This document shows, piece after piece, positions 2,220 through 36,498 of a DNA stretch of 64,000 nt. Below the pieces are notes generated by a model. That model searched no databases and was not told the origin of the DNA. It saw nothing but the letters and a program-made list of their open reading frames with translations. The stretch lies in IMG/VR virus record IMGVR_UViG_3300042889_001305, one strand, 5' to 3'. A program made the translations under genes and the position numbers. The stretch comes from a virus (taxonomy: Duplodnaviria > Heunggongvirae > Uroviricota > Caudoviricetes). Each line of letters begins with the position of its first letter. The first letter of the stretch is position 1.

Positions 2220-3854
2220 TTATGGTTTGTAAAATACAAAAATGGGTTCAAACTTATACGCTTTACCATCGTGTTTAACTGCGTTTTTAATACCGGTTTT
2301 AGATGGGTCTAATCCTACCATTCGGGTCATTAACATCTTCAATCTACCTTTATACTCACAACCTAATCCGGTTAGAATATCAATAGAATCTTGTTCCAAT
2401 GCATAATAGGTATCCTTACCAATTTTAATATCGGCTATGTTCCATAGAATGTATCTATCATTTTTAAGATAATCATAAATGGTAGTTAGAGTAGGACGTA
2501 AGAAGTTTTGTCTCCAATCCTCATATTCACCATATGCTTTGAATGATTGATTCTCATCTTGTGAATATTGTTCTCTATTAAAATATGGGGGTGATGTGAA
2601 TGCTAAATCCAATTTACCTGCATACTTTTGAAACTTAGGATTATGTTGAATCAACTCCGAGCCATCTTGAAATAACTCATAAGTGTTTGATTGTTTTTGA
2701 ACCTCAAAGAACTTACCAAATGTTTCTGAGTAATCATCTACACAATTTTTGTTATAGAAATCAGCCACATACTCATAACGTGAAATACCTAATTCCGGTA
2801 TAAAGTTATCAGGGTTCGGGTCAGTTCCAATGTAATGGGTTTTCTTACGAGAACTCATTGCACCTAATATTCTGCCACCCCATCCACTTGATGAATCATA
2901 AATGTGTAGGGGGTCTGATTGTTCAATATGTGAAGTGTAATGTTCGTATAACCACTTAGCAGTTAGTGCAGGGAAATTCACTGCAGGTTGACCACAACTT
3001 AAACGAAACACTTGTAATATCTTTGGAAAGATACCAATTGTCTTATCATACCAACGAATCAGATAGAAAAACTTTTTAACCGTCCCATCTTTTAAAGTGG
3101 TAGATGGTTCAATCGTTTTAATATTAGATAATTGAGTATGTGATAACCATCCCTTATCCTTACATTCTTGTACTTGTTCAGCAGTTAGGTATAGATTACC
3201 AAATCCAATATATTGTTCATTGATAGTACCATAATTATCTAAGGTATCCTCCTTTACTTTCGCAAGAACAATACCTATGTTTTCGTACTTACCAACGAAC
3301 ACTTTACCTTCATGTACTTTTTGTATAAATTCAATTCCAGTTTCACCATCCCAAAATTCATTCTCATCTTTCTTATTCACAATAGAACGTGACCACGAAT
3401 ACATAGAATCTTTCTTAACCGCCCTCTTCATTATATGAACGAAGGTATCTTCTAATTTCGGGTCTGAGAAATGGTCATAAATAGATAATCCACCTTCTGC
3501 TGATTTACCGATTGATATTTTGGTTTTCAACATAGTTGGAAAGAATTGATTTACGGCTGATGCATCTTTATTGAAGTTTTGTAAAATACCCAATGAGTTA
3601 TCATCTCCCGTCAAATCTTTTTGAAGGAAATCACAATCATTTGTTTTTAACTTTTTGAATGAATCGATTATATCATTCTTATCTTTTCCGATAACAGGAG
3701 GAACACCATCGGTATCCCATTGTTTAGTTACTTCTATGCGTAGTAACTTTGCCCAACTAATAAACTCATCATCAGTCATTTCTAATAACCGATGATAAGT
3801 TGTATTGGATTGGAATTCAGAAAATTTAGACCTTTCGTAATAGTGTTTACTCAT
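2220..3854 (-). CDS. SAM-dependent amino-methyltransferase-like protein (SPPY motif), paralog P1. About 300 aa of unknown N-terminal domain.
   Basis: Motif I-like YDSSSGWGGRILGA precedes motif IV DLAFTSPPYFNREQY, the gamma-type order of N6A/N4C methyltransferases. The C-terminus is similar to the products of 11339-12559 and 12564-13796. Confidence 0.6.
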   Translation of the reverse strand: MSKHYYERSKFSEFQSNTTYHRLLEMTDDEFISWAKLLRIEVTKQWDTDGVPPVIGKDKNDIIDSFKKLKTNDCDFLQKDLTGDDNSLGILQNFNKDASAVNQFFPTMLKTKISIGKSAEGGLSIYDHFSDPKLEDTFVHIMKRAVKKDSMYSWSRSIVNKKDENEFWDGETGIEFIQKVHEGKVFVGKYENIGIVLAKVKEDTLDNYGTINEQYIGFGNLYLTAEQVQECKDKGWLSHTQLSNIKTIEPSTTLKDGTVKKFFYLIRWYDKTIGIFPKILQVFRLSCGQPAVNFPALTAKWLYEHYTSHIEQSDPLHIYDSSSGWGGRILGAMSSRKKTHYIGTDPNPDNFIPELGISRYEYVADFYNKNCVDDYSETFGKFFEVQKQSNTYELFQDGSELIQHNPKFQKYAGKLDLAFTSPPYFNREQYSQDENQSFKAYGEYEDWRQNFLRPTLTTIYDYLKNDRYILWNIADIKIGKDTYYALEQDSIDILTGLGCEYKGRLKMLMTRMVGLDPSKTGIKNAVKHDGKAYKFEPIFVFYKP

Positions 3855-7868: not shown

Positions 7869-8708
7869 TTAAAATTTGTAAATTCCACCAATATTCCAGA
7901 ATAGAATAGTTCCTTCGATTTGGTCTATGTTTTCTTCTAACCACTTCCATTGCTTTACATCCCAAAATTGGTTGCAAGGGAATGGGGTTTCGTAACCATC
8001 TAATCTATTCTCAAATAGATACTCTGATTTTCGTATATTTAGGGGAATTGGAATCCCACTCTTTTTAAGTGTTTTATTGATTGAACTAACCGATGATACA
8101 CATGTTGTCCAAATCTTCTTTTTAACTTGTGGAAAAAACTCTTTAAGTTCCTCTCTATAATATCCTCTTGCTAATCCTGCAAGAGTTACACCACTACCAG
8201 ATGATACTACTAAATTATCAAAATGGGCAAGGGGTTGAATTCTATCTGCAAGATAATCTTTATAGAAATCGTGGTCAAAAGCGTAAGGTAACATTTGCCA
8301 TCCCCTTTCTCTTGCATCTTTCTTTAACGAATTATACATAATCTGCATCATATTAGGTCTAATTGGATATAGGTTTGTTTTAGGATGCATTTCCTTAATC
8401 ATTCTCAAATATTCCTGTGATATCTTTTTAGAATCAGGGTGTGCTGCATAAAATTCAATTCCCAATTCCTCACATATTGCACTCAATGCCCATGCTGTCC
8501 AACTACCATCTACGGAAAGGTGAACCAGTGGTTTTGATTTATCAATATATTTTTTAACCAATTCAAATAATGCTGCTAATTTACCCCACGGCGGTAATAT
8601 CATACCATCGCCCATCAAGTCATCCCTCTTTACCCATACTTCTCTACCCTTAATGTGATAAAGTTCTAATGGGGTATCTTCGGTTAATCCTTTTAGTTTT
8701 AAATCCAT
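7869..8708 (-). CDS. PLP-dependent enzyme, fold type II (ACC deaminase / D-cysteine desulfhydrase family), shortened
   Basis: TPLELYHIKGREVWVKRDDLMGDGMILPPWGKLAALFEL parallels E. coli DcyD TPLEYL..GREIFIKRDD......GNKLRKLEFL, placing the PLP lysine in WGK. The glycine loop VVSSGSGVTLAGLA parallels VVASGSAGTHAGLA. It is 279 aa against about 330 for the family. Confidence 0.7.
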   Translation of the reverse strand: MDLKLKGLTEDTPLELYHIKGREVWVKRDDLMGDGMILPPWGKLAALFELVKKYIDKSKPLVHLSVDGSWTAWALSAICEELGIEFYAAHPDSKKISQEYLRMIKEMHPKTNLYPIRPNMMQIMYNSLKKDARERGWQMLPYAFDHDFYKDYLADRIQPLAHFDNLVVSSGSGVTLAGLARGYYREELKEFFPQVKKKIWTTCVSSVSSINKTLKKSGIPIPLNIRKSEYLFENRLDGYETPFPCNQFWDVKQWKWLEENIDQIEGTILFWNIGGIYKF

Positions 8709-10204
8709 TGATATATTCCTCCTGAGTTTGACGTTAATTCTCCTTTCATTTTTCTATGAGAGAACCCGTGTATTTTTTCAAAGTTATCACCAATGACATG
8801 AATCATATTTTTTCTTTTCTTAAAATTAATAGATTCATCTTTTAAAATGATTTCTTCGATGTATTGTTTAAAATTTGTTCCTTTTTGAAATGCTCTTTTT
8901 TCCTGGTCTAAAATCTCATCAGGCAGTTTACCTCTGAATGCATTAGCAAGTGGTAATTTCCATTGACCTCCTTTAGATAAGTATTCATCGGTTAAATTAG
9001 TAGTATAGTTTAAAAATTCGGTATCAAAGAATGGGCATCTTAATTCGATTGTTCCATAATTCATAAAGATAGTATTACCTCTTAATAGGTTACCATAGTA
9101 TTGTTTTTCAAATAACTTTTTACGAACATCACTCCAATCTGGTTTCTTACTGAACATACGGAATGTACCATACGAACCATAGGATTCATCAGAACCCTCA
9201 CCACTAAATGCTACCTTAATACCATCTCTTGCCATTTGTTCTGCAATAAAGGATTGTAGGATACCCACTTCCATTTGAACGGTCGATGGATATTCGATTA
9301 CTCTAATTGAATCTAAAAATCTTTGTTTAATTATTTCTTCATCTTTAGGAACAAATACTTCAACTAACTCCACTCCTAAATACTCCGCACATACTCTTGC
9401 CTTTTGTAAATCCTTTGAGGTTTCATCAAATGCAATTGTGTATGCTTTTAGGTTTGGTATACGTTGTGATAGTAGGTAGGTAATGATTGCAGAATCAATC
9501 CCACCACTTAGTGATGTAGCAATTGGTACATCTGATAATAATCTTTTATCTACTGCAGTTTCTAATAACTTAAATGTAGTTTCACCAACTTCTTCATGTG
9601 ATGCCGGTATAGTAGGTTCGTTTGAGAATTGAAAATAATAATCTTTATGAACTACAATCGTATCAGTATTTAAATCAATTTCTACCAATGAATTCTTAGG
9701 TACAAACTTAATATCTGAACTCTTTACCTGTGTTGTAATGGATTTCAATTCACTAGCGATGATATAGTTGTTTGTATTGTGAATATAAAGGGGCAATTTA
9801 CCCACCCAGTCCCTCGATAGTATCAACTTATCATTATCGTATATAATGAATGAGAACATACCCTCTAATCTCTTTAATTCACCTTCCTTGTAAAGATATA
9901 GAATAATTTCTGAATCTGAATTAGATTTAAAGTGATACCCCCTTCCTTCGTATTCTTTACGCAATTGAGGATAGTTCCAAATCTCACCATTGACTACCAA
10001 TTCAACTCCATCCCATTCCATAGGTTGATTACCCAATGGTGAAGTATCGTTGATTGATAATCGGTTATGTCCTAAGATAATATGTTTATCGTTATATTGG
10101 AATTCTTTAATACCACGATTATCTCTACCACGATGCTCAATTGCTTCGAGCATTACATTCACATCATCTCTTTTATATCCAATCGTTGCTACAATTCCAC
10201 ACAT
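8699..10204 (-). CDS. Asparagine synthetase (glutamine-hydrolysing)-like amidotransferase
   Basis: The N-terminal MCGI carries the Cys2 nucleophile of class II glutamine amidotransferases. The PP-loop SLSGGIDSAIITYL is an ATP pyrophosphatase motif. 501 aa. Its stop overlaps the start of the PLP enzyme gene. Confidence 0.85.
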   Translation of the reverse strand: MCGIVATIGYKRDDVNVMLEAIEHRGRDNRGIKEFQYNDKHIILGHNRLSINDTSPLGNQPMEWDGVELVVNGEIWNYPQLRKEYEGRGYHFKSNSDSEIILYLYKEGELKRLEGMFSFIIYDNDKLILSRDWVGKLPLYIHNTNNYIIASELKSITTQVKSSDIKFVPKNSLVEIDLNTDTIVVHKDYYFQFSNEPTIPASHEEVGETTFKLLETAVDKRLLSDVPIATSLSGGIDSAIITYLLSQRIPNLKAYTIAFDETSKDLQKARVCAEYLGVELVEVFVPKDEEIIKQRFLDSIRVIEYPSTVQMEVGILQSFIAEQMARDGIKVAFSGEGSDESYGSYGTFRMFSKKPDWSDVRKKLFEKQYYGNLLRGNTIFMNYGTIELRCPFFDTEFLNYTTNLTDEYLSKGGQWKLPLANAFRGKLPDEILDQEKRAFQKGTNFKQYIEEIILKDESINFKKRKNMIHVIGDNFEKIHGFSHRKMKGELTSNSGGIYQWI

Positions 10205-10209
10205 ATTAT

Positions 10210-10632
10210 TTATTTTATATCAGCTTCTACGTCTTTTAAATTCATTTCTATCATTTTCAACTCATCATTTAACCAATCATATTTTCCAAATGCTATATCC
10301 TTTATCTTTGCATTGATTTCCCAACGTTGAATAATATCTCCTACTACATTTAATTCTAATAATTGAAACGAAATTGTATTAGTTTGTTTAGATTTATTTT
10401 CTGCTAATCCCTTGCAAATAATTGAAGCAATTGGAATTTCTGAAGTTTCATACATCTCAATTGTTAAATCACCCCAATTTACCCACCCATCATCATAAAC
10501 ACAAACTACTTTTAATTCACTCATTTTATGGACCGCATATGTTGGGATAACAAATGGGGAATTAAATTCAATTAAAAATCTATTTACTTTTTGTGGTTCA
10601 AATGCTACGAACTCTTGTTGTTCTTTTTTCAT
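10210..10632 (-). CDS. Hypothetical protein (140 aa)
   Basis: ATG start that overlaps the stop of the TS-like gene (translational coupling). No recognisable motif. Confidence 0.45.
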   Translation of the reverse strand: MKKEQQEFVAFEPQKVNRFLIEFNSPFVIPTYAVHKMSELKVVCVYDDGWVNWGDLTIEMYETSEIPIASIICKGLAENKSKQTNTISFQLLELNVVGDIIQRWEINAKIKDIAFGKYDWLNDELKMIEMNLKDVEADIK

Positions 10633-10633
10633 A

Positions 10634-11332
10634 TTATTTATTTAATACTTCTAATAACTTATGAGTCTTTTTCGTTTCATCATTCATTTTACCGATATGA
10701 CAAGAACAAGCTAAAACTGAAACTTTCCCTAACTCCATACCACTTTCTCTCGCTAAGAACTTACCCATCTCAACCAATGCAGTGTAATCTGCGTAACCTG
10801 ATTTGGATACTCTATTTGAACGAATGATTGATGTTAGGTAGATTTTACCACCACGAGGTTTAATATCAATCCCTAACATACAAGGTTGTGAGTATGGATT
10901 CCTAGCATCTCTGCTCGGGTCAAAGATAATCAATTCACATCTCTTAACTGCTTTACCAGTTTTAAGGATTTTAATTACATTTTCTACTTGATTAAATGTT
11001 CCTTGCCATGCAATCATTCTACCCCAATATGAATCATGCCAGTGGTCTTTAATGAATTTGTATTCCAATCCCTCTTCGGCTACAAAGAATGGGTTATCCG
11101 ATACCTTTGGTTGTGGTTCTAAGAAGGTTACGGTCTTTGCGTAATCAATTCTATCATCTCCCATAATTTCTCTAAAATGTGGGTCGAACCATTCATCAGA
11201 TTTAAATTCGGTGATTTCTGTCATTACGTTTAACTCTTCGGTTAAATCGCCTACCTTTACGCCATTGGCAATAAGGTGTTTAGATACCTTTACCCATGCA
11301 TCTCCCGGAGATGTTGCTTCTATAACTGTCAT
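10634..11332 (-). CDS. Thymidylate synthase-family enzyme (dNMP 5-hydroxymethylase/methylase-like), short form
   Basis: SQPCMLGIDIK carries the Pro-Cys nucleophile. KIYLTSIIRSNRVSKSGYADYTALVEM parallels TS [27 protein letters not shown], and VSVLACSCHI parallels the TS C-terminal block. It is 232 aa, shorter than ThyA and closer in size to phage dCMP/dUMP hydroxymethylases. Confidence 0.75.
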   Translation of the reverse strand: MTVIEATSPGDAWVKVSKHLIANGVKVGDLTEELNVMTEITEFKSDEWFDPHFREIMGDDRIDYAKTVTFLEPQPKVSDNPFFVAEEGLEYKFIKDHWHDSYWGRMIAWQGTFNQVENVIKILKTGKAVKRCELIIFDPSRDARNPYSQPCMLGIDIKPRGGKIYLTSIIRSNRVSKSGYADYTALVEMGKFLARESGMELGKVSVLACSCHIGKMNDETKKTHKLLEVLNK

Positions 11333-11338
11333 ATTATT

Positions 11339-12559
11339 TTATTTTATTTTTTTCCAAATCCAAATGGGTTCACCAAATGCATTATTTTTATTGAGTTCTG
11401 TTTTTTCTTTGAGTTCTTCTGCAAAATATTCAGATTTAGCATTTCCTGCACCGCCGGAATTAAACCTTTTTGTCATTTCCATTCCAATACAACCCATATA
11501 TTCTAATCCCTCTGATTTAATAAAGTCATTCATAGCATTTACAATATCAACATACCCCTTATCTGGTGCTGAAAATACATCTGCAATATTAACTGCTAAT
11601 AACCCACCCTTCTTTAAGGTAGGGATTATTTTTTTAATTGTTTTATGTAGGAAATTGGTATTCCAATCATCTATCTTTTTATAGCGTAAATAACTTTGAG
11701 TATCATGTGTGGAATACTTTTCAGTATTGAAGTATGGAGGTGAAGTGAAGATTGTATCAAAAAAGTTTTCATATTTGGAATAATCCACATCTTCTGCCGG
11801 TAACTTTATCAGTTCCACAGTTTTAGGATTCTCAAAAAACGTTTTGTGTTTCTGATAAAATTCTATTTGGTTTTCATAATTTGGGTGATTATCTAAATTA
11901 GGGTCTATACCAACATAATGTTTACCCGTTTCACTTGCAAAGAATCCACATAATCTATCTCCCCAACCTGCTGAAAAATCTAATATATTCTCACTTTGGA
12001 ATCTATCATAAAATGCTTTAGCAATTACAGGTTTGAATTGTGATGCCACATACTTTCGTAATGTAGTTGCCATCTTTAGTGTTTCCTTATTTACATCAGT
12101 TAGGACTTGTTCTAATGTGAAGAATGCCCGAACTATGGTTTTTATACCATTAACTGTCTGCCATGTCTTCCAACCTGATGGTGTTCTTGACCAATCTACC
12201 TTCCATCGATTTTCTATATGGAATGGGTTGGATGCGTTATTACCAACATTCGTTCTTTTAAAGTAATAATTACTACTATCAAATGTAAGTGGATATGCAG
12301 ATTCCCTTTCATTACGCGGAAACCATTCTCCCTCCACTAAAATATCCGGCCACCAAGTACCCTTTAACTTTTTATATGCATCAATCGTTTCTTGTTCTGT
12401 AATAATAGGAATAGGTGGTGGATAAGTATGTAATACTTCTGATAATGTTTCTACTATCTCTTCCTTTTCAAATGTATTTAGTATATGTTTCCACTCCTCC
12501 TTATCAATATTGATATAGGGGGTCATTCCATAAAACTTTTTGAAATATTCTTTTATCAT
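11339..12559 (-). CDS. SAM-dependent amino-methyltransferase-like protein (SPPY motif), paralog P2
   Basis: LDFSAGWGDRLCGFFA (motif I) and FTSPPYFNTEKY (motif IV). The N-terminus MIKEYFKKFYGMTPY matches the P3 N-terminus MYIEYFDKFYGMTPY. I therefore take the ATG at 12557-12559 rather than the track's TTG at 12667. AGGAAAA lies 12 nt upstream. Confidence 0.6.
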   Translation of the reverse strand: MIKEYFKKFYGMTPYINIDKEEWKHILNTFEKEEIVETLSEVLHTYPPPIPIITEQETIDAYKKLKGTWWPDILVEGEWFPRNERESAYPLTFDSSNYYFKRTNVGNNASNPFHIENRWKVDWSRTPSGWKTWQTVNGIKTIVRAFFTLEQVLTDVNKETLKMATTLRKYVASQFKPVIAKAFYDRFQSENILDFSAGWGDRLCGFFASETGKHYVGIDPNLDNHPNYENQIEFYQKHKTFFENPKTVELIKLPAEDVDYSKYENFFDTIFTSPPYFNTEKYSTHDTQSYLRYKKIDDWNTNFLHKTIKKIIPTLKKGGLLAVNIADVFSAPDKGYVDIVNAMNDFIKSEGLEYMGCIGMEMTKRFNSGGAGNAKSEYFAEELKEKTELNKNNAFGEPIWIWKKIK

Positions 12560-12563
12560 TAAA

Positions 12564-13796
12564 TTACATTTTCCTAAATACCCATACCGGTTCGCAGAAA
12601 GTTTTACCGGCATTTTCAATTGCCTTTTGCTTTTCTTCTTCGGAATATCGGTCTTCATCTCCCTCAATCATTGCACCTGCTCCAATTGAACCTGGCCTCT
12701 TAGCCATTTCCATACCTAAACATCCTTGATACTCTGCACCTTCTAATGTGGAAATAAAATCGTTCATTGGGTTAGTGATTTCCTGTTGACCTTTGCCATC
12801 ACCCTTTGAGGATGCATATACATCTGCGATATTAACTGCTAGATACCCACCCTTACGGATAGTAGGCCATACTTTTTCAATCGTTGCATGTAAGAATAAT
12901 TTATTCCATGCATCAATATTTTTATATCGAATCCAACTTTGAGTATCATCATATGAATATCTCTCTACGTTGAAATATGGTGGCGAACTGAATACAATAT
13001 CAAAGTAATCGGTATACTCACTATAATCCATATCCTCTGCGGGAGAACAATGAAAGGTTGCCCTCTTATCAGTTTCAAAAAAACCATTATTCTTTTTATA
13101 GAATTCGGCTTGTTTTTCGTATATTGGATGATTTTCTTTACGCGGGTCAATACCTACATAATGCTCACCATATTCTGATGCGAAAAATCCACATAATCTA
13201 TCACCCCATCCAGCAGAAATATCTAATACATTCTTTGCTTGAACGAAATCATAAAGTGCCTTTGCTACGTTTGGTTTGAACTGAGAACAAATATACTTTC
13301 TTAAAGATAGACAAGTTCTTAGGGTATTTTTACTAACCTCATCAAATTTTAGGGTATACATTCCACCGATTAGTGAAAACATAAAATCAGGGTTATTCCA
13401 AGTACGGAATGGGCCAGGCGATACTGTCCCATCTACGCTCCATCTATTTGCTTGTTGAAAATGATTCGATGCCCCATTACCAGTATTCAGCCTTCTTACA
13501 TATTGTTGTTTACCTTGAAATCCTAATGGATAACGGGTTTCAGATGCCTTACGAGGAAACCACTCACCTTCGGTTAGAAGTTCGTGATAACGAGTTCCTT
13601 TTAATTTAAGATACTCTTTTCTTGCATCCTCTTCAGAAATATCTGCATATGGTAATTCATATGTCATACATACTTTGGCAAGAGATTCCTTAACGTCTTC
13701 TCTTTGGTATGTTTTTTTAATGTGAGACCACTCTTCCTTACCGATATAAAGATATGGTGTCATACCATAAAATTTATCAAAATACTCTATATACAT
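12564..13796 (-). CDS. SAM-dependent amino-methyltransferase-like protein (SPPY motif), paralog P3
   Basis: LDISAGWGDRLCGFFA and FSSPPYFNVERY. It sits in tandem with P2 and is collinear with it over the whole length. ATG start, with a host-type promoter 36 nt upstream. Confidence 0.6.
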   Translation of the reverse strand: MYIEYFDKFYGMTPYLYIGKEEWSHIKKTYQREDVKESLAKVCMTYELPYADISEEDARKEYLKLKGTRYHELLTEGEWFPRKASETRYPLGFQGKQQYVRRLNTGNGASNHFQQANRWSVDGTVSPGPFRTWNNPDFMFSLIGGMYTLKFDEVSKNTLRTCLSLRKYICSQFKPNVAKALYDFVQAKNVLDISAGWGDRLCGFFASEYGEHYVGIDPRKENHPIYEKQAEFYKKNNGFFETDKRATFHCSPAEDMDYSEYTDYFDIVFSSPPYFNVERYSYDDTQSWIRYKNIDAWNKLFLHATIEKVWPTIRKGGYLAVNIADVYASSKGDGKGQQEITNPMNDFISTLEGAEYQGCLGMEMAKRPGSIGAGAMIEGDEDRYSEEEKQKAIENAGKTFCEPVWVFRKM

Positions 13797-17513: not shown

Positions 17514-18620
17514 TTACTCAAAAAATTGATTTATTTTTTCTTTCACTTCCGGTTTCACTTCTACACGGTTTCCTTTTATTGGTTTGCTAACCGGTCTGTT
17601 TTTTTCATATTCAATTCTTGTTTTCGAAATTTCAAAGTATTCTTTTTCTCTTTCAATACCAATAAAATCAAAACCACCTCTAATTGCTGCTTTACCAGTA
17701 CTTCCACTTCCCATAAACGGGTCTAATATCGTTCCATCGTTTTTAGTAACCAAACGAATAAGGTATAGCATCAAATCCGTTGGTTTGACAGTCGGGTGTG
17801 TGTTATTACTTCCTTCGTTTCTATCACTCTTTGATGTTTTAGGACAGTAGAAAAATCTACTAGCACCACCAACATCTCCCAATCCACCTAAATTTGCAGC
17901 TTTAACATCTAATGCATAGTTTCCATATTTACCGTTTTTGCCCAATTCTCCCATTGATTTATCCCCACTACCTCCTGGTGATTTTGATACTCCACTTTGT
18001 TCATCCAATAACCTACCTGCTTCTTCATCAAAGATTACATTTGCTGGAAATCTGCCTATTGTATCTGCTATGTTAGCGTTACTACTATCATAACCATCAT
18101 CTAATCCTGTCAATGAGGGTCTACCATTTGCTTTTGATTTATAATCACCATTAAGTTCAATCCTGCAACCATCTATGTTTATCCCACCAGTTCCCCATTC
18201 TAAAACATTCTCTGCTACTGTGCTTTCACTCAAAGGTTTTCTTGCCATTACAATAGGTTCATGTGCCGGTTTAAGAGCAGTTCCCCAACCTTGCCATTCT
18301 TCTAACTTATGTCCTATGTTATGTGATTTAGGAAACCCTGAACCATATATCCACATAATCTGGTCTCTAATCTCAAACCCTGCATCTTCAATTCTTACAG
18401 CCATTCTGTGATAAGTTCTACTACCCGCGAATGAAAGGATATGACCTCCTGGTTTTAGAACACGAAGGCATTCTTCCCATATCTGCTGTGATGGAACATC
18501 ATAATCCCAGTGTTTGCCCATAAATGCAAGTCCATATGGCGGGTCAGTAACAATACTATCCACCGAATTATCATCTAATTCTTTAAGTTTATCTAAACAA
18601 TCTCCTAGTAATAATTTCAT
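17514..18620 (-). CDS. DNA methyltransferase (N6-adenine or N4-cytosine, DPPY type)
   Basis: SIVTDPPYGLAF (motif IV) near the N-terminus, and DPFMGSGSTGKAA (motif I) near the C-terminus. This is the beta-class order of the N6_N4_Mtase family. 368 aa. Confidence 0.85.
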   Translation of the reverse strand: MKLLLGDCLDKLKELDDNSVDSIVTDPPYGLAFMGKHWDYDVPSQQIWEECLRVLKPGGHILSFAGSRTYHRMAVRIEDAGFEIRDQIMWIYGSGFPKSHNIGHKLEEWQGWGTALKPAHEPIVMARKPLSESTVAENVLEWGTGGINIDGCRIELNGDYKSKANGRPSLTGLDDGYDSSNANIADTIGRFPANVIFDEEAGRLLDEQSGVSKSPGGSGDKSMGELGKNGKYGNYALDVKAANLGGLGDVGGASRFFYCPKTSKSDRNEGSNNTHPTVKPTDLMLYLIRLVTKNDGTILDPFMGSGSTGKAAIRGGFDFIGIEREKEYFEISKTRIEYEKNRPVSKPIKGNRVEVKPEVKEKINQFFE

Positions 18621-25088: not shown

Positions 25089-25559
25089 TTATTTTGCCCA
25101 TTTACCATTAGAAACTATTTGTGCAATAATTCCATATACTGATAGGTCTTGAAAGGTATCTTCTATTGATTCCCCAACTGAATCCTCTTTACTTAGGACT
25201 ACCAATTGTTTTAATCTTTGGATTTTATCGTTCATTCTAAACCATAATCCCGTTAGTGATAATTTCTTATCCTCAGCAGTTTCTAATTTAGTACCAACCG
25301 AAATATTGTTTGGGCCGTAGTTTGATTGTTTTAGACAAAACAATTCGTATTGAGTAAACATAAGTCGTTTAAACTCATCCGTCATTTCTGGATATTCTTT
25401 TTCGACCTGTTCTATGATTTTGGGATTATCATATTTGATAAATGCAACCTCATCATCTTTAGTCTCCAATTTAGGAGCGATGTTCATTTGAAGTTGATTC
25501 TTCACCTGTTGGCCTATAATCTTAGGGCCACTTGATTGTGGGGGTGTGTTTTTTGCCAT
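25089..25559 (-). CDS. Hypothetical protein (156 aa)
   Basis: ATG start. A host-type promoter lies 28 nt upstream. Confidence 0.45.
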   Translation of the reverse strand: MAKNTPPQSSGPKIIGQQVKNQLQMNIAPKLETKDDEVAFIKYDNPKIIEQVEKEYPEMTDEFKRLMFTQYELFCLKQSNYGPNNISVGTKLETAEDKKLSLTGLWFRMNDKIQRLKQLVVLSKEDSVGESIEDTFQDLSVYGIIAQIVSNGKWAK

Positions 25560-29093: not shown

Positions 29094-29759
29094 TTATTTT
29101 TGTTTGAATTTAAACCCTGTTAGTTTTTCAATATCCGAAACCTCTACTTTATTATTATTTATACCATCTGGTTTAGATAAGTCGTTCTCAAATAAAAACG
29201 CAAACCATTCTTTATTTCTAACTACATAAAAAACTTTCCAACATTGTGTCGGTACGGAAATCTTTCCTATCTTTTTTAACTCACCCACATTTCCTGCCCA
29301 CACATGAACGGAATCTGATATTAGAGCAACATCTCTTGTTAGGGTTTCTAAGGATTTCCAATCTCCCGCATTTAATCTATGGTATTGTGCTACCATATTT
29401 GAATAATAGAAACTTTCATCTTGTATCGCCGGAGTTTGACATTGATTTGATTTTGCCGGCATTAGATGACCTCTATCAAATCCACTTCCTACATAATCGT
29501 TTCCAATATTGGTTTCGTTTGGTAAAAGGGGGTCGGGTTTAAAATTATCTTTACGTGGAATTGGATTTGGACAACCAATTTTTGCTTTGGTTTCCCACCA
29601 TTCTACTAAGACAGGATATCTTTTTGATTTACTAAAGTGTGAGGTGTAATTTGTGTGTTTTAAAACCACTACATCTTGTGCGAATGTTACAATTGTAACG
29701 AATGATAGCATCAACGTCATTAACGTAATCCCCACTATTGTTCCTAAATTTTTTCTCAT
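29094..29759 (-). CDS. Exported non-specific DNA/RNA endonuclease (beta-beta-alpha-Me, Serratia/EndoG family)
   Basis: N-terminal signal peptide MRKNLGTIVGITLMTLMLSFVTIVTFAQD. It carries the DRGH motif as GSGFDRGHLMPA. 221 aa. Confidence 0.75.
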   Translation of the reverse strand: MRKNLGTIVGITLMTLMLSFVTIVTFAQDVVVLKHTNYTSHFSKSKRYPVLVEWWETKAKIGCPNPIPRKDNFKPDPLLPNETNIGNDYVGSGFDRGHLMPAKSNQCQTPAIQDESFYYSNMVAQYHRLNAGDWKSLETLTRDVALISDSVHVWAGNVGELKKIGKISVPTQCWKVFYVVRNKEWFAFLFENDLSKPDGINNNKVEVSDIEKLTGFKFKQK

Positions 29760-31528: not shown

Positions 31529-32440
31529 TTATTGGATATTTTTAAACATTTGTGGAACTTGCCCATAGACCGGTAATTTACCATCCCATTTGTTAATATA
31601 TTCCAATTGTAACAACAATGGTGTTAGAGTTACTTGCTTCATTCGATTTGATTCCGCTTCTGCCTTTGCAGAGGTTAACATTGCCTGTGCATTACCTTCC
31701 GCAGTTGCTACTTTAATCTTCGCTTGTGCTTCAGCAGTTTTCACTTCGTTCTCTGCTCTTAATGCTGCTTGAACTGCGTTGTTCTTAGCTTCGATTGAAC
31801 GTTTGAATGTTTCTGGATAAATCAAATTCGATGTGAACTGATTAATTGTAAATCCCTCTTTTAATAATTGTCCATCTAATAACCTACGAACTTCAATTTC
31901 AAATATTGCTCTATTTGAGATTAACTCATCTGCGGTATATTTGTTAGTTGCTAATCTGAATGCATCATACACTGCTGTTTTTAAAAAGCCTTCCTCAATA
32001 TCTTCCAAAGGTCTACGATACTTAGAAAATATTGCCGGAACTTTATCCCTCTGAACTGAATAGTTCATAATCGGAGATACGTTAAATTCAGAACCATCCT
32101 TACTATTTACAATGAATGAATTTTCACCTTTGTATTCCTTATGTTGAATGAATGTAGGGAACTCATAAATCTTAGTTGTAATTGGATTATAGAATACCAT
32201 ACCGGTAACTGCTACTACATCATCCACCCCTTTGTTATCACCATATTGGTTTACTTTAACACCAACATATCCTGCATCAATTCTTTCACATGAATTGAAT
32301 AATACTACTAATAGGATAAATCCTAATACACCTGCACTAATTGCTTTAATCATTTTTTTGATTTTTAATTGTTTGTTTAATTTATATTCTTCAATCTCTT
32401 TTTGTCTTAGAGCTTGATAATCCGTATCATATACTGCCAT
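31529..32440 (-). CDS. SPFH / band-7 (stomatin/prohibitin/HflC-like) membrane protein
   Basis: One N-terminal TM helix (ISAGVLGFILLVVLF), then an SPFH-like core and an Ala/Glu/Lys-rich coiled-coil (AVQAALRAENEVKTAEAQAKIKVATAEGNAQAML). Confidence 0.7.
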   Translation of the reverse strand: MAVYDTDYQALRQKEIEEYKLNKQLKIKKMIKAISAGVLGFILLVVLFNSCERIDAGYVGVKVNQYGDNKGVDDVVAVTGMVFYNPITTKIYEFPTFIQHKEYKGENSFIVNSKDGSEFNVSPIMNYSVQRDKVPAIFSKYRRPLEDIEEGFLKTAVYDAFRLATNKYTADELISNRAIFEIEVRRLLDGQLLKEGFTINQFTSNLIYPETFKRSIEAKNNAVQAALRAENEVKTAEAQAKIKVATAEGNAQAMLTSAKAEAESNRMKQVTLTPLLLQLEYINKWDGKLPVYGQVPQMFKNIQ

Positions 32441-34997: not shown

Positions 34998-35729
34998 TTA
35001 TATTTGTAGGTATATATACTCTGAAAACTCCTTATTTCCATTGGGTGAAAGATGCCAATCTCCATTATTTAATTCAGAATCACAAGTCCACCCTTTATTT
35101 ATGGTTAATTCTCGTAAATTTGTTAAAGCCGGTTCAATATATTTCCTAATATTATCACCCATTAATTTATCCCATGATAATAATAATGTTGATATATTAT
35201 TTTTTTTATCATCAATACCTTTTAAAGTATAGTATGTTGATAAAATAGAATTTCGTTGTAAAAATATTTCATTTGATAATTTTTTATTGAATATATTACA
35301 AAAGGTAGTTAACTCCGCATCGTAATATGGATATTCTTCATTAAAGTTTCTATGAGGTGAAAACGGAACAATTGAATTCAGGTCATTTTTTTTTAAAATT
35401 GAATGCTGAAATGCTATTCTATTCCAATAGGTTAATTGAAAAATTATTAGTGAATCATCATATATTTCACGAGGTAATCTATCTCCATATAGTTCTATTT
35501 GCTTATCATTATTAGGATGCGGAAATTCTAATTTAGAATTTATACAATTTAAATAATATAAATTTTCAATGTTTGAACTACCATTTATTGAATAGTTGTA
35601 TACATTTTTAGCTGATATATTTAACTTATCCGCTAACAAATCTACATATGATTTGCAATTAGGGTCAATAGAATTGGTATTTAACGAATGAGAACACCCA
35701 AAAATATATAAATGTTTGTATTTATTCAC
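34998..35729 (-). CDS. Hypothetical protein, weakly SGNH/GDSL-hydrolase-like
   Basis: The N-terminal LYIFGCSHSLNT resembles GDSL block I with Asp replaced by Cys. GTG start. Low confidence. Confidence 0.35.
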   Translation of the reverse strand: MNKYKHLYIFGCSHSLNTNSIDPNCKSYVDLLADKLNISAKNVYNYSINGSSNIENLYYLNCINSKLEFPHPNNDKQIELYGDRLPREIYDDSLIIFQLTYWNRIAFQHSILKKNDLNSIVPFSPHRNFNEEYPYYDAELTTFCNIFNKKLSNEIFLQRNSILSTYYTLKGIDDKKNNISTLLLSWDKLMGDNIRKYIEPALTNLRELTINKGWTCDSELNNGDWHLSPNGNKEFSEYIYLQI

Positions 35730-36498
35730 CCCAATACTTTTGTCTTAATTCGTACATATCAATTGCCTCTCTTTTCATTTGATTTCCAGCATGAAAATAT
35801 GCACCTTCTTTAAGATAACCACCTAAGAAATTTCTTCTCATTCTATTAGGGTCTTTATTTGGTTCTGACCCATGTACTACATGTGAGTGTAAAAGTGCAA
35901 CTTGTCCTTTTTTCAAATACCCTTCTATCTTACGGAAATCATGCCCTTCTGGCATTACACAACTTTTACCTCTCTCACTTCTCCAGTTATCGGTATTTGT
36001 TGCTTTTCTTTCTTCGTTATCTTCGATTGGTAAAACCGGTAATCTATGTGAACCTTCATAGTTCCATACTGCACCATTTTCAGGGTCGTGATTATCTAAT
36101 GCCAATGCAGTGTTGATAATTTCATTGTGTCCACAACCAGTATAGAATGCATTTTGATGTTGGTCTCTACCCAATTCGCCCTTTGGTTTGTAATAACCCC
36201 AAGTTTGTAATCCAACAACTCCACCTTCCATTAGGAATTCTGCTGCTTCTAAAATTTTTGGATGTGAAAATAATTTAGCTATTTTTTCTGATTCTCTATG
36301 TGGATACATAATGGGTTCGAACTCTTGCCATTTTCCTGGTTCTTTTTCATTACGTTCTACACGTAAACGGTCTAATTCTTCGTTGATTTCATCTACTTCT
36401 GCTTCGGTTAATAATTCCAAAACTGTGAAGCCTCGGTATCTCCAATCAAATGACATTTGTTGAAGTTCTTCCGTTGTAAGGTGTTTGTATTTTTGCAT
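35722..36498 (-). CDS. Fe(II)/2-oxoglutarate-dependent dioxygenase, PhyH (phytanoyl-CoA dioxygenase) family
   Basis: HQNAFYTGCGH and ALLHSHVVHGSEPN...R fit the PhyH HxD/E...H...R arrangement. 258 aa. Confidence 0.6.
   Translation of the reverse strand: MQKYKHLTTEELQQMSFDWRYRGFTVLELLTEAEVDEINEELDRLRVERNEKEPGKWQEFEPIMYPHRESEKIAKLFSHPKILEAAEFLMEGGVVGLQTWGYYKPKGELGRDQHQNAFYTGCGHNEIINTALALDNHDPENGAVWNYEGSHRLPVLPIEDNEERKATNTDNWRSERGKSCVMPEGHDFRKIEGYLKKGQVALLHSHVVHGSEPNKDPNRMRRNFLGGYLKEGAYFHAGNQMKREAIDMYELRQKYWGE

What the first reader, a model, noticed from the sequence alone, without database searches (positions are those of the whole stretch)
7869..8708. Shortened ACC-deaminase / D-cysteine-desulfhydrase-type PLP enzyme in a phage
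The match to fold-type-II PLP enzymes is strong at the motif level (TPLE...GRE..VKRDDL...GK and the SSGSGVT glycine loop), but the protein is about 50 aa shorter than the family norm. Fold-II enzymes catalyse beta-elimination and beta-replacement through aminoacrylate. One possibility is grafting an amino-acid-derived side chain onto a nucleophile, such as a base hydroxymethyl group or a ring nitrogen. That route would differ from the fold-I PLP enzymes known in thymidine hypermodification.
Basis: partly seen in the sequence, partly recalled or inferred. Interest (0 to 1): 0.7.

Follow-up and report, generated by a model that had tools for sequence, protein, structure and literature searches.

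The report
Phage DNA-hypermodification PLP enzyme, new context
The gene encodes a vitamin-B6 (PLP) enzyme of the small phage family that trims amino acids attached to viral DNA bases, but here it sits with methyltransferase-like and asparagine-synthetase-like partners instead of the known ones, which points to an undescribed way of decorating phage DNA.

Summary
ORF 7869-8708 (-) encodes a 279-aa fold-type-II PLP enzyme in a T4-like myovirus, with every quoted motif present, an invariant Schiff-base lysine (K43) and dN/dS of 0.05-0.11. The interpretation needs correcting. The protein is not a shortened ACC deaminase. It is a full-length member of a small, apparently virus-restricted family (typically about 255-300 aa). 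That family contains Pseudomonas phage M6 gp52 and, more remotely, Salmonella phage ViI gp226. What is new is the clade and its context. The window and 80 related viral contigs show no 5-hmdU DNA kinase, amino-acid:DNA transferase or radical-SAM isomerase. Instead the gene is coupled to a Gln-dependent AsnB-like amidotransferase (70 of 83 loci) and to SPPY-motif SAM-methyltransferase-like paralogues (61 of 83 loci). It also comes with either a cytosine-type TS-like enzyme or a 2-hydroxyacid dehydrogenase, and these two never co-occur. MT-like+PLP fusion proteins exist elsewhere. I read it as a DNA-hypermodification enzyme, probably a decarboxylase, in an undescribed pathway. SAM may supply the amino-acid moiety, but the chemistry is inferred, not shown.

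The parts
7869..8708 (-). 279-aa fold-type-II PLP enzyme, a divergent clade of the M6 gp52 / ViI gp226 family of phage DNA-amino-acid decarboxylases
   Evidence: phrog_7093 E 1e-23, 4-278 of 279; M6 gp52 E 1e-20, residues 2-277
8580..8582 (-). codon of K43, the predicted Schiff-base lysine (WGK)
   Evidence: It aligns with the PLP lysine region of 1j0a, is invariant in 76-79 sequences and its coordinates were checked.
8184..8204 (-). SSGSGVT glycine loop (predicted PLP phosphate binding)
   Evidence: It aligns with the GSGGT loop of 1j0a. Conservation is shown and the coordinates.
7938..7985 (-). family-specific C-terminal motif PFPCNQFWDVKQWKWL, followed by LFWNIGG at 7884-7904
   Evidence: a recognisable counterpart is present in ViI gp226
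8699..10204 (-). 501-aa glutamine-dependent AsnB-like amidotransferase whose stop overlaps the PLP start by 10 nt (ATGGATTTAA)
   Evidence: Pfam GATase_7 plus Asn_synthase; TIGR01536 at 282.6 bits against a cut-off of 267.1; E. coli AsnB 1ct9 at E 5e-39; next to the PLP gene in 70 of 83 loci; overlap shown
10634..11332 (-). 232-aa thymidylate-synthase-like enzyme with the catalytic Cys and an Asp at the position of E. coli TS Asn177 (cytosine-type), a candidate (d)CMP C5-hydroxymethylase or methylase
   Evidence: the best PDB hit is MilA CMP hydroxymethylase at E 4.6e-4 with the alignment shown; present in 40 of 83 loci and never together with the 2-hydroxyacid dehydrogenase
10210..10632 (-). 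140-aa ORF between the TS-like and AsnB-like genes, with no family match, probably not a core part
   Evidence: found in only one related locus (L006)
12564..13796 (-). MT-like paralogue (410 aa): class-I SAM-methyltransferase fold with motif I DISAGWGDR, motif IV SSPPYF and a conserved N-terminal domain of unknown fold
   Evidence: (invariant D192, G196, R200, D217, D266, S271-P-P)
11339..12559 (-). MT-like paralogue, 51% identical to the previous one (the mechanical ORF runs to 12667, but the likely start is the ATG at 12559)
2220..3854 (-). third MT-like paralogue (544 aa), homologous over almost its whole length to the N-terminal 500 aa of the MT-like+PLP fusion protein P0219
   Evidence: E 3e-39

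Best explanation
The ORF encodes a PLP enzyme of the phage-specific fold-type-II family typified by M6 gp52 and, more remotely, ViI gp226. I infer that it works after replication on the phage's own DNA. K43 would hold PLP as an internal aldimine, and the free alpha-amino group of an amino-acid moiety already tethered to a base would displace it. The enzyme would then most probably remove the alpha-carboxylate as CO2, leaving a cationic primary-amine side chain that shields the DNA from host nucleases. In this phage lineage the tethered amino acid does not come from the known kinase / amino-acid:DNA-transferase route. The enzyme belongs to a conserved module with two to three SPPY-motif SAM-methyltransferase-like proteins and a Gln-dependent AsnB-like amidotransferase. 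The MT-like proteins are the best candidates for supplying or further processing the side chain. The simplest chemistry is transfer of the 3-amino-3-carboxypropyl part of SAM to a base amino group, followed by decarboxylation to aminopropyl. The AsnB-like enzyme would amidate a carboxylate. Shown: fold, family membership, conserved catalytic residues, selection, gene linkage and fusions. Inferred: DNA as substrate, decarboxylation as the reaction, SAM as donor, and the target base.
For: The protein is a full-length homologue of M6 gp52 (tblastn E 1e-20; phrog_7093 E 1e-23). M6 gp52 and ViI gp226 were shown in vitro to bind PLP and to decarboxylate Calpha-GlyT and O-SerT in DNA (PMC8989533). 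ViI gp226 matches the family profile (hhalign 97.2%, E 2.8e-11) with its K92 on K43. R28, D30 and K43 are invariant, and the family-only C-terminal motif is shared. Both clades share the altered S-x-x-G-W loop in place of the Ser-Asn-His of DcyD/1j0a. The family is small: 344 representatives among 1.84 billion. A motif scan of 185,579 bacterial and archaeal genomes found no member of the window clade. Linkage is strong. Of 45 loci with at least 4 kb on both sides, 44 carry MT-like genes and 40 an AsnB-like gene, across PLP identities of 43-97% and two different genome backbones. There are Rosetta-stone fusions of MT-like and PLP domains: P0192, P0204 and P0219. P0219 sits alone among small unannotated ORFs on an 8.2-kb contig. 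In a third lineage the order is MT-like551, then PP-loop+PLP, then a GNAT acyltransferase, which fits an amine product that is then acylated, as in PaMx11. The SAM-binding residues of the MT-like proteins are invariant. An AsnB homologue acting on a DNA-borne carboxylate has a precedent in CmoY (PMC12783734).
Against: No biochemical or DNA-composition data exist for any member of this clade, and no cultured phage carries the module. Identity to M6 gp52 is only about 25%, and clade-specific pocket changes (W41, W/Y70, Y142, W249, loss of R45) allow a different reaction or substrate. The AsnB-like protein keeps the motifs of a genuine asparagine synthetase in the alignment with 1ct9, so it could act on free aspartate. 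The roles of the TS-like and 2-hydroxyacid dehydrogenase partners are unexplained. (D/N/S)PPY methyltransferases normally transfer methyl, not aminocarboxypropyl, and Foldseek gave only generic class-I methyltransferase matches. Six short loci show only a dehydrogenase+PLP pair with no MT-like gene within 7 kb.
Confidence: 0.5

Rival explanations
1. The enzyme is the installer, not the trimmer. It forms a PLP-aminoacrylate from serine, O-acetyl-serine or O-phospho-serine, and a nucleophile on a DNA base adds to it, giving an alanyl-base adduct by beta-replacement. The AsnB-like enzyme then amidates that adduct.
For: The fold and nearest solved structures are beta-eliminating or beta-replacing enzymes (DcyD, ACC deaminase, OASS). 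No known installer (AADT, kinase) is in the window or in related loci. In 33 loci a 2-hydroxyacid dehydrogenase of the glyoxylate-reductase / phosphoglycerate-dehydrogenase type lies beside the PLP gene, which could feed a phosphoserine-type donor. The clade's pocket residues differ from those of the decarboxylase clade.
Against: The only characterised family members are decarboxylases. The Ser-Asn-His loop seen in DcyD/1j0a is replaced in this clade exactly as in the M6 clade. This reading does not explain the MT-like+PLP fusions.
Confidence: 0.15
2. The PLP enzyme acts on free SAM, which is itself an alpha-amino acid carrying a nucleoside. It decarboxylates SAM to dcSAM, and the MT-like proteins then act as aminopropyl transferases on DNA or on a polyamine.
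For: The MT-like+PLP fusions and overlapping gene pairs fit cofactor channelling. P0219 has no other annotated partner on its contig. Spermidine synthases are class-I methyltransferase folds that use dcSAM (established knowledge).
Against: The invariant Arg200 next to motif I of the MT-like proteins would suit a carboxylate-bearing cofactor (inference). The characterised relatives act on DNA-borne substrates. Known SAM decarboxylases are pyruvoyl enzymes. This reading gives no role to the AsnB-like enzyme.
Confidence: 0.12
3. It is an auxiliary metabolic gene. Together with the AsnB-like and dehydrogenase genes it rewires host amino-acid metabolism, for example through a deaminase or desulfhydrase type reaction that gives a 2-oxo acid. 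It has nothing to do with DNA.
For: Automatic annotations read 'threonine dehydratase' or 'ACC deaminase'. The AsnB-like protein passes the asparagine-synthase equivalog cut-off and keeps the AsnB motifs. A 2-hydroxyacid dehydrogenase could reduce a 2-oxo-acid product.
Against: It fails the curated ACC-deaminase/DcyD model by a wide margin. The family is small and was not found in cellular genomes. Its closest characterised members act on DNA. It is fused to DNA-methylase-like domains. The genes sit among replication genes such as PolB, clamp, RNR and helicase.
Confidence: 0.1

Closest known systems
Pseudomonas phage M6 gp52 (YP_001294560), PLP-dependent decarboxylase converting Calpha-glycinylthymidine in DNA to 5-(2-aminoethyl)-dU
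   Same: The length is the same (278 against 279 aa). The alignment runs end to end (E 1e-20). Both have the VKR(E/D)DL motif, the Schiff-base lysine, the glycine loop, the S-x-x-G-W loop, and the PFPCN..D.K.WKWL and FWNIG C-terminal motifs.
   Different: Identity is only about 25%. The window clade lacks the K-x-R-G arginine and has W41, W70, Y142 and W249. M6-type genes sit with a radical-SAM isomerase (77 of 80 loci), AADT and 5-HMUDK. The window clade never does, and sits with MT-like and AsnB-like genes instead.
Salmonella phage ViI gp226 (YP_004327553), PLP-dependent decarboxylase of O-serinylthymidine in DNA
   Same: It is a remote homologue of the same family profile (hhalign 97.2%, E 2.8e-11). 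Its K92 aligns with K43, and a C-terminal ...LFWIVG motif is present. It is fold-type-II-like, as its authors modelled it on 1j0a.
   Different: It is 424 aa long with large insertions and about 15% identity. It works with two kinases and a serine:DNA transferase, none of which were detected in the window.
D-cysteine desulfhydrase / ACC deaminase (PDB 4d8t, 1j0a, 1f2d; TIGR01275)
   Same: They share fold type II and are the nearest solved structures (Foldseek E about 1e-12, TM 0.70-0.72; profile E 3.7e-14). The lysine and glycine loop are conserved.
   Different: The window protein is 40-60 aa shorter and 16-20% identical, and scores 25.9 bits against a cut-off of 289.4. The Ser-Asn-His loop is replaced, and the C-terminal third is family-specific and does not align.
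CmoY of Synechococcus phage S-B43 and its Gln-amidase-containing relatives (AsnB homologues acting on 5-carboxymethylcytosine in DNA)
   Same: This is a precedent for the partner gene: an asparagine-synthetase homologue that activates a DNA-borne carboxylate. One described cluster carries the glutamine-hydrolysing domain, as here (PMC12783734).
   Different: Those systems use CmoA plus a C5-methyltransferase homologue (SPPC motif). No CmoA or C5-methyltransferase was found in the window, the MT-like proteins here have SPPY, and no PLP enzyme is part of the CmoX/Y system.

Membership tests
Fold-type-II PLP enzymes (tryptophan-synthase-beta superfamily, Pfam PALP PF00291) | Schiff-base lysine in the N-terminal part, aligned with the catalytic lysine of solved members | tested here: met
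   K43 aligns with the NK lysine of 1j0a and is invariant in 76-79 sequences.
Fold-type-II PLP enzymes (tryptophan-synthase-beta superfamily, Pfam PALP PF00291) | Glycine-rich phosphate-binding loop and the overall two-domain alpha/beta fold | tested here: met
   SSGSGVT aligns with the GSGGT of 1j0a. The AF2 model (pLDDT 96.3) matches DcyD, ACC deaminase and OASS by Foldseek at E 1e-12 to 1e-8.
Fold-type-II PLP enzymes (tryptophan-synthase-beta superfamily, Pfam PALP PF00291) | Pfam gathering score for PALP | tested here: not met
   The score is 21.8 bits against a cut-off of 35. More distant family members do pass (P0171, P0204 and others), so this reflects divergence rather than exclusion.
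Fold-type-II PLP enzymes (tryptophan-synthase-beta superfamily, Pfam PALP PF00291) | Binds PLP (absorbance at 410-425 nm) | not testable with these tools
   This was shown only for M6 gp52 and ViI gp226 (PMC8989533).
ACC deaminase / D-cysteine desulfhydrase family (TIGR01275) | Curated whole-protein score | tested here: not met
   The score is 25.9 bits against a cut-off of 289.4, and only residues 160-215 match.
ACC deaminase / D-cysteine desulfhydrase family (TIGR01275) | Ser-Asn-His loop after the first domain strand, as seen in 1j0a | tested here: not met
   The profile alignment puts S-K-A (window S69-W70-T71) against the S-N-H of 1j0a.
ACC deaminase / D-cysteine desulfhydrase family (TIGR01275) | C-terminal catalytic Tyr/Glu (ACC deaminase) or Tyr/Thr (DcyD) pair | tested here: inconclusive
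Phage DNA-amino-acid PLP decarboxylases (M6 gp52 / ViI gp226; phrog_7093) | Full-length homology to a characterised member | tested here: met
   M6 gp52 residues 2-277 match at E 1e-20. phrog_7093 positions 4-278 of 279 match at E 1e-23. ViI gp226 against the family profile gives 97.2% probability.
Phage DNA-amino-acid PLP decarboxylases (M6 gp52 / ViI gp226; phrog_7093) | Family-specific motifs: VKR(E/D)DL, S-x-x-G-W loop, PFPCN..D.K.W.W, LFWNIG | tested here: met
   All are present, at coordinates checked. Conservation is shown.
Phage DNA-amino-acid PLP decarboxylases (M6 gp52 / ViI gp226; phrog_7093) | K-x-R-G arginine two residues after the lysine (58 of 65 non-window-clade members) | tested here: not met
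   The window has K-L-A-A, and the window clade is variable (E/K/A) at this position.
Phage DNA-amino-acid PLP decarboxylases (M6 gp52 / ViI gp226; phrog_7093) | Genomic association with 5-hmdU DNA kinase, aGPT-Pplase2 amino-acid:DNA transferase and (M6 type) a radical-SAM isomerase | tested here: not met
   The M6 gp51, gp53 and gp54 queries gave no tblastn hit in the window or in the 82 window-clade loci. The ViI gp243/gp247 queries were run only against the M6-type loci. Pfam scans of window ORFs of at least 100 aa found none. M6-type loci do show these genes.
Phage DNA-amino-acid PLP decarboxylases (M6 gp52 / ViI gp226; phrog_7093) | Decarboxylation of a base-tethered alpha-amino acid in DNA | not testable with these tools
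   This needs enzyme assays or nucleoside LC-MS.

The most novel reading that the evidence does not exclude
Abundant uncultured aquatic myoviruses carry a DNA hypermodification pathway of a new type. In it, an amino-methyltransferase-like enzyme uses SAM as an alpha-amino-acid (3-amino-3-carboxypropyl) donor rather than a methyl donor, onto a base amino group that is plausibly cytosine. The fold-II PLP enzyme decarboxylates the adduct to an aminopropyl side chain. An AsnB-like enzyme amidates the carboxylate on another fraction or site. This logic resembles diphthamide or acp3U biosynthesis but would act on DNA, and it is independent of 5-hydroxymethylpyrimidine, the DNA kinase and the amino-acid:DNA transferase.
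Probability: 0.25. Interest if true: 0.85.

Novelty: new variant of a known kind. Interest (0 to 1): 0.62.

Why it matters
All characterised amino-acid-derived DNA hypermodifications start from 5-hydroxymethyl-dU, a DNA kinase and an amino-acid:DNA transferase. The metagenome survey in PMC8989533 was anchored on that kinase, so it would have missed this module. Here the same PLP family is wired to different partners in hundreds of metagenomic contigs from at least three phage backbones. If the module modifies DNA, it adds a new entry route to cationic DNA side chains and a new set of enzymes for DNA engineering. It would also be a new obstacle for restriction, for CRISPR and for sequencing-based detection in environmental viromes. 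It corrects the widespread automatic annotation of these genes as 'threonine dehydratase' or 'ACC deaminase'.

Tried and rejected
Several searches led nowhere.

- Megablast of the 8-kb module against 50,697 phage records gave no match.
- Single-protein locus scans with P0219 and P0124 found nothing.
- The 76-sequence alignment A1 was too diverse for locus scanning.
- Foldseek of the MT-like model gave only generic class-I methyltransferases (GidB, Trm61, NSun6, CmoB), with no match for the N-terminal domain, so it could not separate methyl, carboxymethyl and aminocarboxypropyl transfer.
- The contigs of the fusion proteins P0219, P0204 and P0192 were short and uninformative.
- Literature searches for aminocarboxypropyl or aminopropyl DNA modification in phages, and for this gene combination, returned nothing relevant.

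Three ideas were considered and rejected.

- A CmoA/CmoX/CmoY-type carboxymethylcytosine system: there is no CmoA or C5-methyltransferase, and the motif is SPPY, not SPPC.
- A truncated or pseudogenised ACC deaminase: dN/dS is about 0.1 and the family length is normal.
- The TS-like gene as an obligatory core part: it is absent from 43 of 83 loci and often sits next to RNR genes.

The isoelectric point (8.2; family median about 9) is compatible with nucleic-acid binding but too weak to use.
Full report
**What is there.** ORF 7869-8708 on the minus strand runs from ATG to stop and encodes 279 aa. The window is a 33% G+C stretch of a T4-like myovirus, with almost all genes on the minus strand. 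It carries PolB, a sliding clamp, class I RNR, a DnaB-like helicase, a RecA/UvsX-like protein, gp32, tail sheath, tail tube and baseplate genes. The closest cultured relative by PolB is Microcystis phage Mel-JY01 at 51%, and no nucleotide-level match exists among 50,697 phage records. The gene is abundant in metagenomes: 505 proteins at E <= 1e-3, many of them 70-96% identical and some from marine samples. It evolves under strong purifying selection, with dN/dS 0.05-0.11 against seven relatives. It is a real, functional gene.

**Fold.** Single-sequence matches are weak: Pfam PALP at E 1.4e-4, below the cut-off, and PDB 1j0a at E 0.008. A profile of 76 family members gives a clear answer. It hits the Pyrococcus ACC-deaminase homologue 1j0a at E 3.7e-14, then ACC deaminases, D-cysteine desulfhydrase, serine and threonine dehydratases, cysteine synthases and tryptophan synthase beta. 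An AlphaFold2 model built on a 79-sequence alignment is very confident (pLDDT 96.3, pTM 0.93). Its best Foldseek matches are Salmonella D-cysteine desulfhydrase (E about 1e-12, TM 0.70-0.72, 19% identity), 1j0a and ACC deaminase. K43 aligns with the PLP lysine and SSGSGVT with the phosphate loop. R28, D30 and K43 are invariant across the family.

**Which family it belongs to.** It is not an ACC deaminase or DcyD. It scores 25.9 bits against a curated cut-off of 289.4. The Ser-Asn-His loop of 1j0a is replaced by S69-W-T-A-W73, and the C-terminal third does not align. PHROGs places it end to end in phrog_7093 (E 1e-23, positions 4-278 of 279). A tblastn search of phage genomes finds only Yuavirus-like phages (M6, YuA, PAE1, Bordetella FP1 and others) at about 25% identity over 96% of the length. 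The M6 hit is gp52, which lies between gp51 and gp53/gp54, and the pairwise match is E 1e-20 over gp52 residues 2-277.

Lee et al. (PMC8989533) purified M6 gp52 and ViI gp226. They saw the 410-425 nm PLP band. They showed that gp52 decarboxylates Calpha-glycinylthymidine in DNA to 5-(2-aminoethyl)-dU, and that gp226 decarboxylates O-serinylthymidine to 5-(2-aminoethoxy)methyl-dU. They named K36 and K92 as the likely aldimine lysines, and gp226 was modelled on 1j0a. I fetched ViI gp226 and compared it with the family profile. The result was hhalign probability 97.2% and E 2.8e-11, with K92 on K43 and a recognisable C-terminal ...LFWIVG.

An exhaustive search of 1.84 billion cluster representatives finds only 344 relatives at E <= 1e-3, and 104 of the 150 listed are 250-320 aa long. 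So 279 aa is the family norm, and the 'shortening' is an old property of a specialised family.

**A distinct clade.** About 17 representatives match at E <= 1e-30 (roughly 35-50% identity); the rest are 22-31% identical. Column counts show systematic differences at positions near the lysine and in the pocket-forming loops. The window clade has W41, W/Y70, Y142 and W249, and has no arginine at position 45. The other members have F/L41, K/M/R70, L/F142 and Y249, and R45 in 58 of 65 sequences. Both clades share the S-x-x-G-W loop, the glycine loop and the PFPCN..D.K.W.W / LFWNIG motifs. I read this as the same catalytic scaffold with a different substrate pocket.

**Context in the window.** The PLP start overlaps by 10 nt the stop of a 501-aa AsnB-like protein. 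That protein has a class-II glutamine amidotransferase domain and an Asn_synthase domain. It just passes the TIGR01536 cut-off. It aligns with E. coli AsnB at E 5e-39, with SGGIDS, SGEGSDE and the following R-x-N and E-x-R-x-PF-D stretches conserved.

Upstream lie a 140-aa orphan ORF and a 232-aa thymidylate-synthase-like protein. The latter's best solved relative is the CMP hydroxymethylase MilA (E 4.6e-4). It keeps the nucleophilic Cys and the R-S pair. At the position of E. coli TS Asn177 it has Asp, the residue that marks cytosine-specific members; this comes from the alignment plus established knowledge of TS N177D and T4 gp42. Further upstream are two paralogous MT-like proteins that are 51% identical. 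A third MT-like protein lies beyond PolB and the clamp. All three have motif I D-x-S-x-G-W-G-x-R and motif IV (T/S)-S-P-P-Y-F, the form typical of exocyclic-amine (N4-C / N6-A) methyltransferases. They also share a conserved N-terminal domain. D192, G196, R200, D217, D266 and S-P-P are invariant in a 38-sequence alignment.

The AF2 model of MT410 (pLDDT 87.5) matches only generic class-I methyltransferases. No cultured phage has a full-length homologue. Neither the window nor its relatives contain a detectable 5-hmdU DNA kinase, aGPT-Pplase-type transferase, radical-SAM enzyme, CmoA or C5-methyltransferase. For the window, this rests on tblastn with the M6 proteins and Pfam scans of essentially all ORFs of at least 100 aa.

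**Context elsewhere.** Eighty IMG/VR loci carry window-clade PLP genes at 43-97% identity. Among the 45 loci with at least 4 kb on both sides, 44 have MT-like genes, 40 an AsnB-like gene and 26 the TS-like gene. None has M6 gp51, gp53 or gp54 homologues. Clustering all same-strand ORFs within 7 kb, over 83 loci that include truncated ones, gives these counts:

| Neighbour | Loci (of 83) |
|---|---|
| AsnB-like | 70 |
| MT-like | 61 (90 genes) |
| TS-like | 40 |
| D-2-hydroxyacid-dehydrogenase-like | 33 |
| TS-like and dehydrogenase together | 0 |
| Neither of the two | 10 |

In a T4-like backbone (L060) the order is clamp loader, MT-like, PLP (overlapping), 2-Hacid_dh, MT-like, a 348-aa unknown, AsnB-like, and a bona fide N6_N4 methylase. 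In L069 only 2-Hacid_dh and PLP are seen, followed by ThyX and gp59. The dehydrogenase is closest to glyoxylate reductases and phosphoglycerate dehydrogenase, but only weakly.

The M6-type clade behaves differently. Of 80 loci, 77 carry radical-SAM neighbours, 28 AADT and 19 the kinase by tblastn, and only 3 carry an MT-like gene. A motif scan of 185,579 bacterial and archaeal genomes found no window-clade member; this used a single motif, so it is suggestive only.

**Fusions.** Several family representatives are multi-domain.
- P0219 (816 aa) is an MT544-like protein (E 3e-39 over residues 29-501) fused to the PLP domain.
- P0204 (1385 aa) is MT410-like, plus PLP, plus a GNAT / LPG_synthase_C-like domain.
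- P0192 is N6_N4_Mtase plus PLP.
- P0171 is a PP-loop (SSGKDS) domain plus PLP.

P0219 is the only gene with a Pfam hit on its 8.2-kb contig. P0171 lies in the order ThiF-like, MT-like551, P0171 (overlapping), GNAT499, HU, Sua5, ThrRS-like. MT-like551 matches MT410 at E 2.5e-35 and P0204 at E 1e-99, and GNAT499 matches the C-terminus of P0204 at 45% identity. The MT-like/PLP pair is therefore linked by adjacency in at least three backbones and by three independent fusion architectures.

**How it most likely works.** Shown: fold, conserved catalytic residues, family membership, selection and linkage. Inferred: the enzyme acts on phage DNA after replication. It would form an external aldimine with the free alpha-amino group of a base-tethered amino-acid moiety and decarboxylate it to a primary amine, as its two characterised relatives do.

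The tethered amino acid cannot come from the known route, so a partner must provide it. The only alpha-amino acid that a class-I methyltransferase fold binds is SAM. The apparently self-sufficient MT-like+PLP fusion makes SAM-derived 3-amino-3-carboxypropyl transfer, followed by decarboxylation to aminopropyl, the most economical scheme. Decarboxylation of SAM first, followed by aminopropyl transfer, is a variant of it. The SPPY motif and the cytosine-type TS-like enzyme hint at cytosine as the target. The GNAT in the third lineage fits acylation of an amine product, as in PaMx11. The AsnB-like enzyme would amidate a carboxylate, with CmoY as a precedent for an AsnB homologue working on DNA. 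Its AsnB-like substrate motifs, however, leave open that it simply makes asparagine. The roles of the TS-like and dehydrogenase alternatives are not explained. I put about 0.5 on 'DNA-hypermodification enzyme acting on a tethered amino acid, probably as a decarboxylase', and about 0.25 on the specific SAM-donor scheme.

**Rivals.** It gains some support from the absence of any known installer and from the neighbouring dehydrogenase, which could feed a phosphoserine donor. It explains neither the fusions nor the loop shared with the decarboxylases. The second is SAM decarboxylase plus aminopropyl transferases. The third is a purely metabolic auxiliary gene. That reading fits the automatic names and the orthodox AsnB. 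It does not fit the failure of the curated DcyD model, the small and apparently virus-only family, the methylase fusions or the replication-gene neighbourhood.

**Novelty.** The protein family and its general role are known (PMC8989533). The clade, its altered pocket and above all its partner set are not described in the searchable literature. The published metagenome survey was anchored on the DNA kinase and would have missed it. I therefore rate it a new variant of a known kind, with a realistic chance that the pathway as a whole is a new type of DNA hypermodification.

Noticed in passing
window 25089-25559 (-): A 156-aa ORF matches Pfam DUF1599, 'Nucleotide modification associated domain 1' (E 4.7e-6, just above the cut-off). 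It may be a further nucleotide-modification gene outside the module.
   Followed up: no
window 35722-36498 (-): A 258-aa PhyH-type 2OG-Fe(II) dioxygenase (E 5e-15) is present. Its substrate is unknown, and it was not tested for relatedness to TET/JBP base hydroxylases.
   Followed up: no
window 17514-18620 (-); L060 15440-16540: A bona fide N6_N4 DNA methylase (E 1e-36) lies a few kb from the module in the window and directly after the AsnB-like gene in the T4-like locus L060. It may be a recurrent neighbour of the module.
   Followed up: partly
83 related loci (L002-L083 plus the window): The TS-like gene (40 loci) and a D-2-hydroxyacid-dehydrogenase-like gene (33 loci) are mutually exclusive neighbours of the PLP gene. 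This is unexplained. Either they play alternative roles in the pathway, or they merely mark two phage backbones.
   Followed up: partly
L167 4737-13989 (also L168, L169): A third lineage carries a large candidate modification island: ThiF-like, MT-like, a PP-loop+PLP fusion, a GNAT/FemX-like protein (499 aa), HU, Sua5/TsaC (threonylcarbamoyl-AMP synthase) and a ThrRS-like protein. This hints at aminoacyl- or threonylcarbamoyl-type chemistry on DNA.
   Followed up: partly
L085-L111 (M6-type PLP loci): In many M6-type loci the PLP gene is flanked by two members of the ORF cluster that holds the M6 gp53 radical-SAM protein (about 350 and about 470 aa), in a conserved order with five further unannotated clusters. 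tblastn detects no AADT or kinase there, so this may be another uncharacterised variant.
   Followed up: no
window 11339-12667 (-): The mechanical ORF starts at a TTG that overlaps the upstream paralogue by 104 nt. Alignment with the paralogue suggests the real start is the ATG at 12559 (MIKEYF...).
   Followed up: yes
window 29094-29759 (-) and 31529-32440 (-): The window encodes a DNA/RNA non-specific endonuclease (E 4e-36), a possible host-DNA degradation function that would fit a phage with modified DNA, and an SPFH/Band-7 protein.
   Followed up: no
P0221, P0235 (family representatives): These are GIY-YIG endonuclease domains fused N-terminally to PLP domains, probably homing-endonuclease insertions or gene-call fusions rather than functional coupling.
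   Followed up: no
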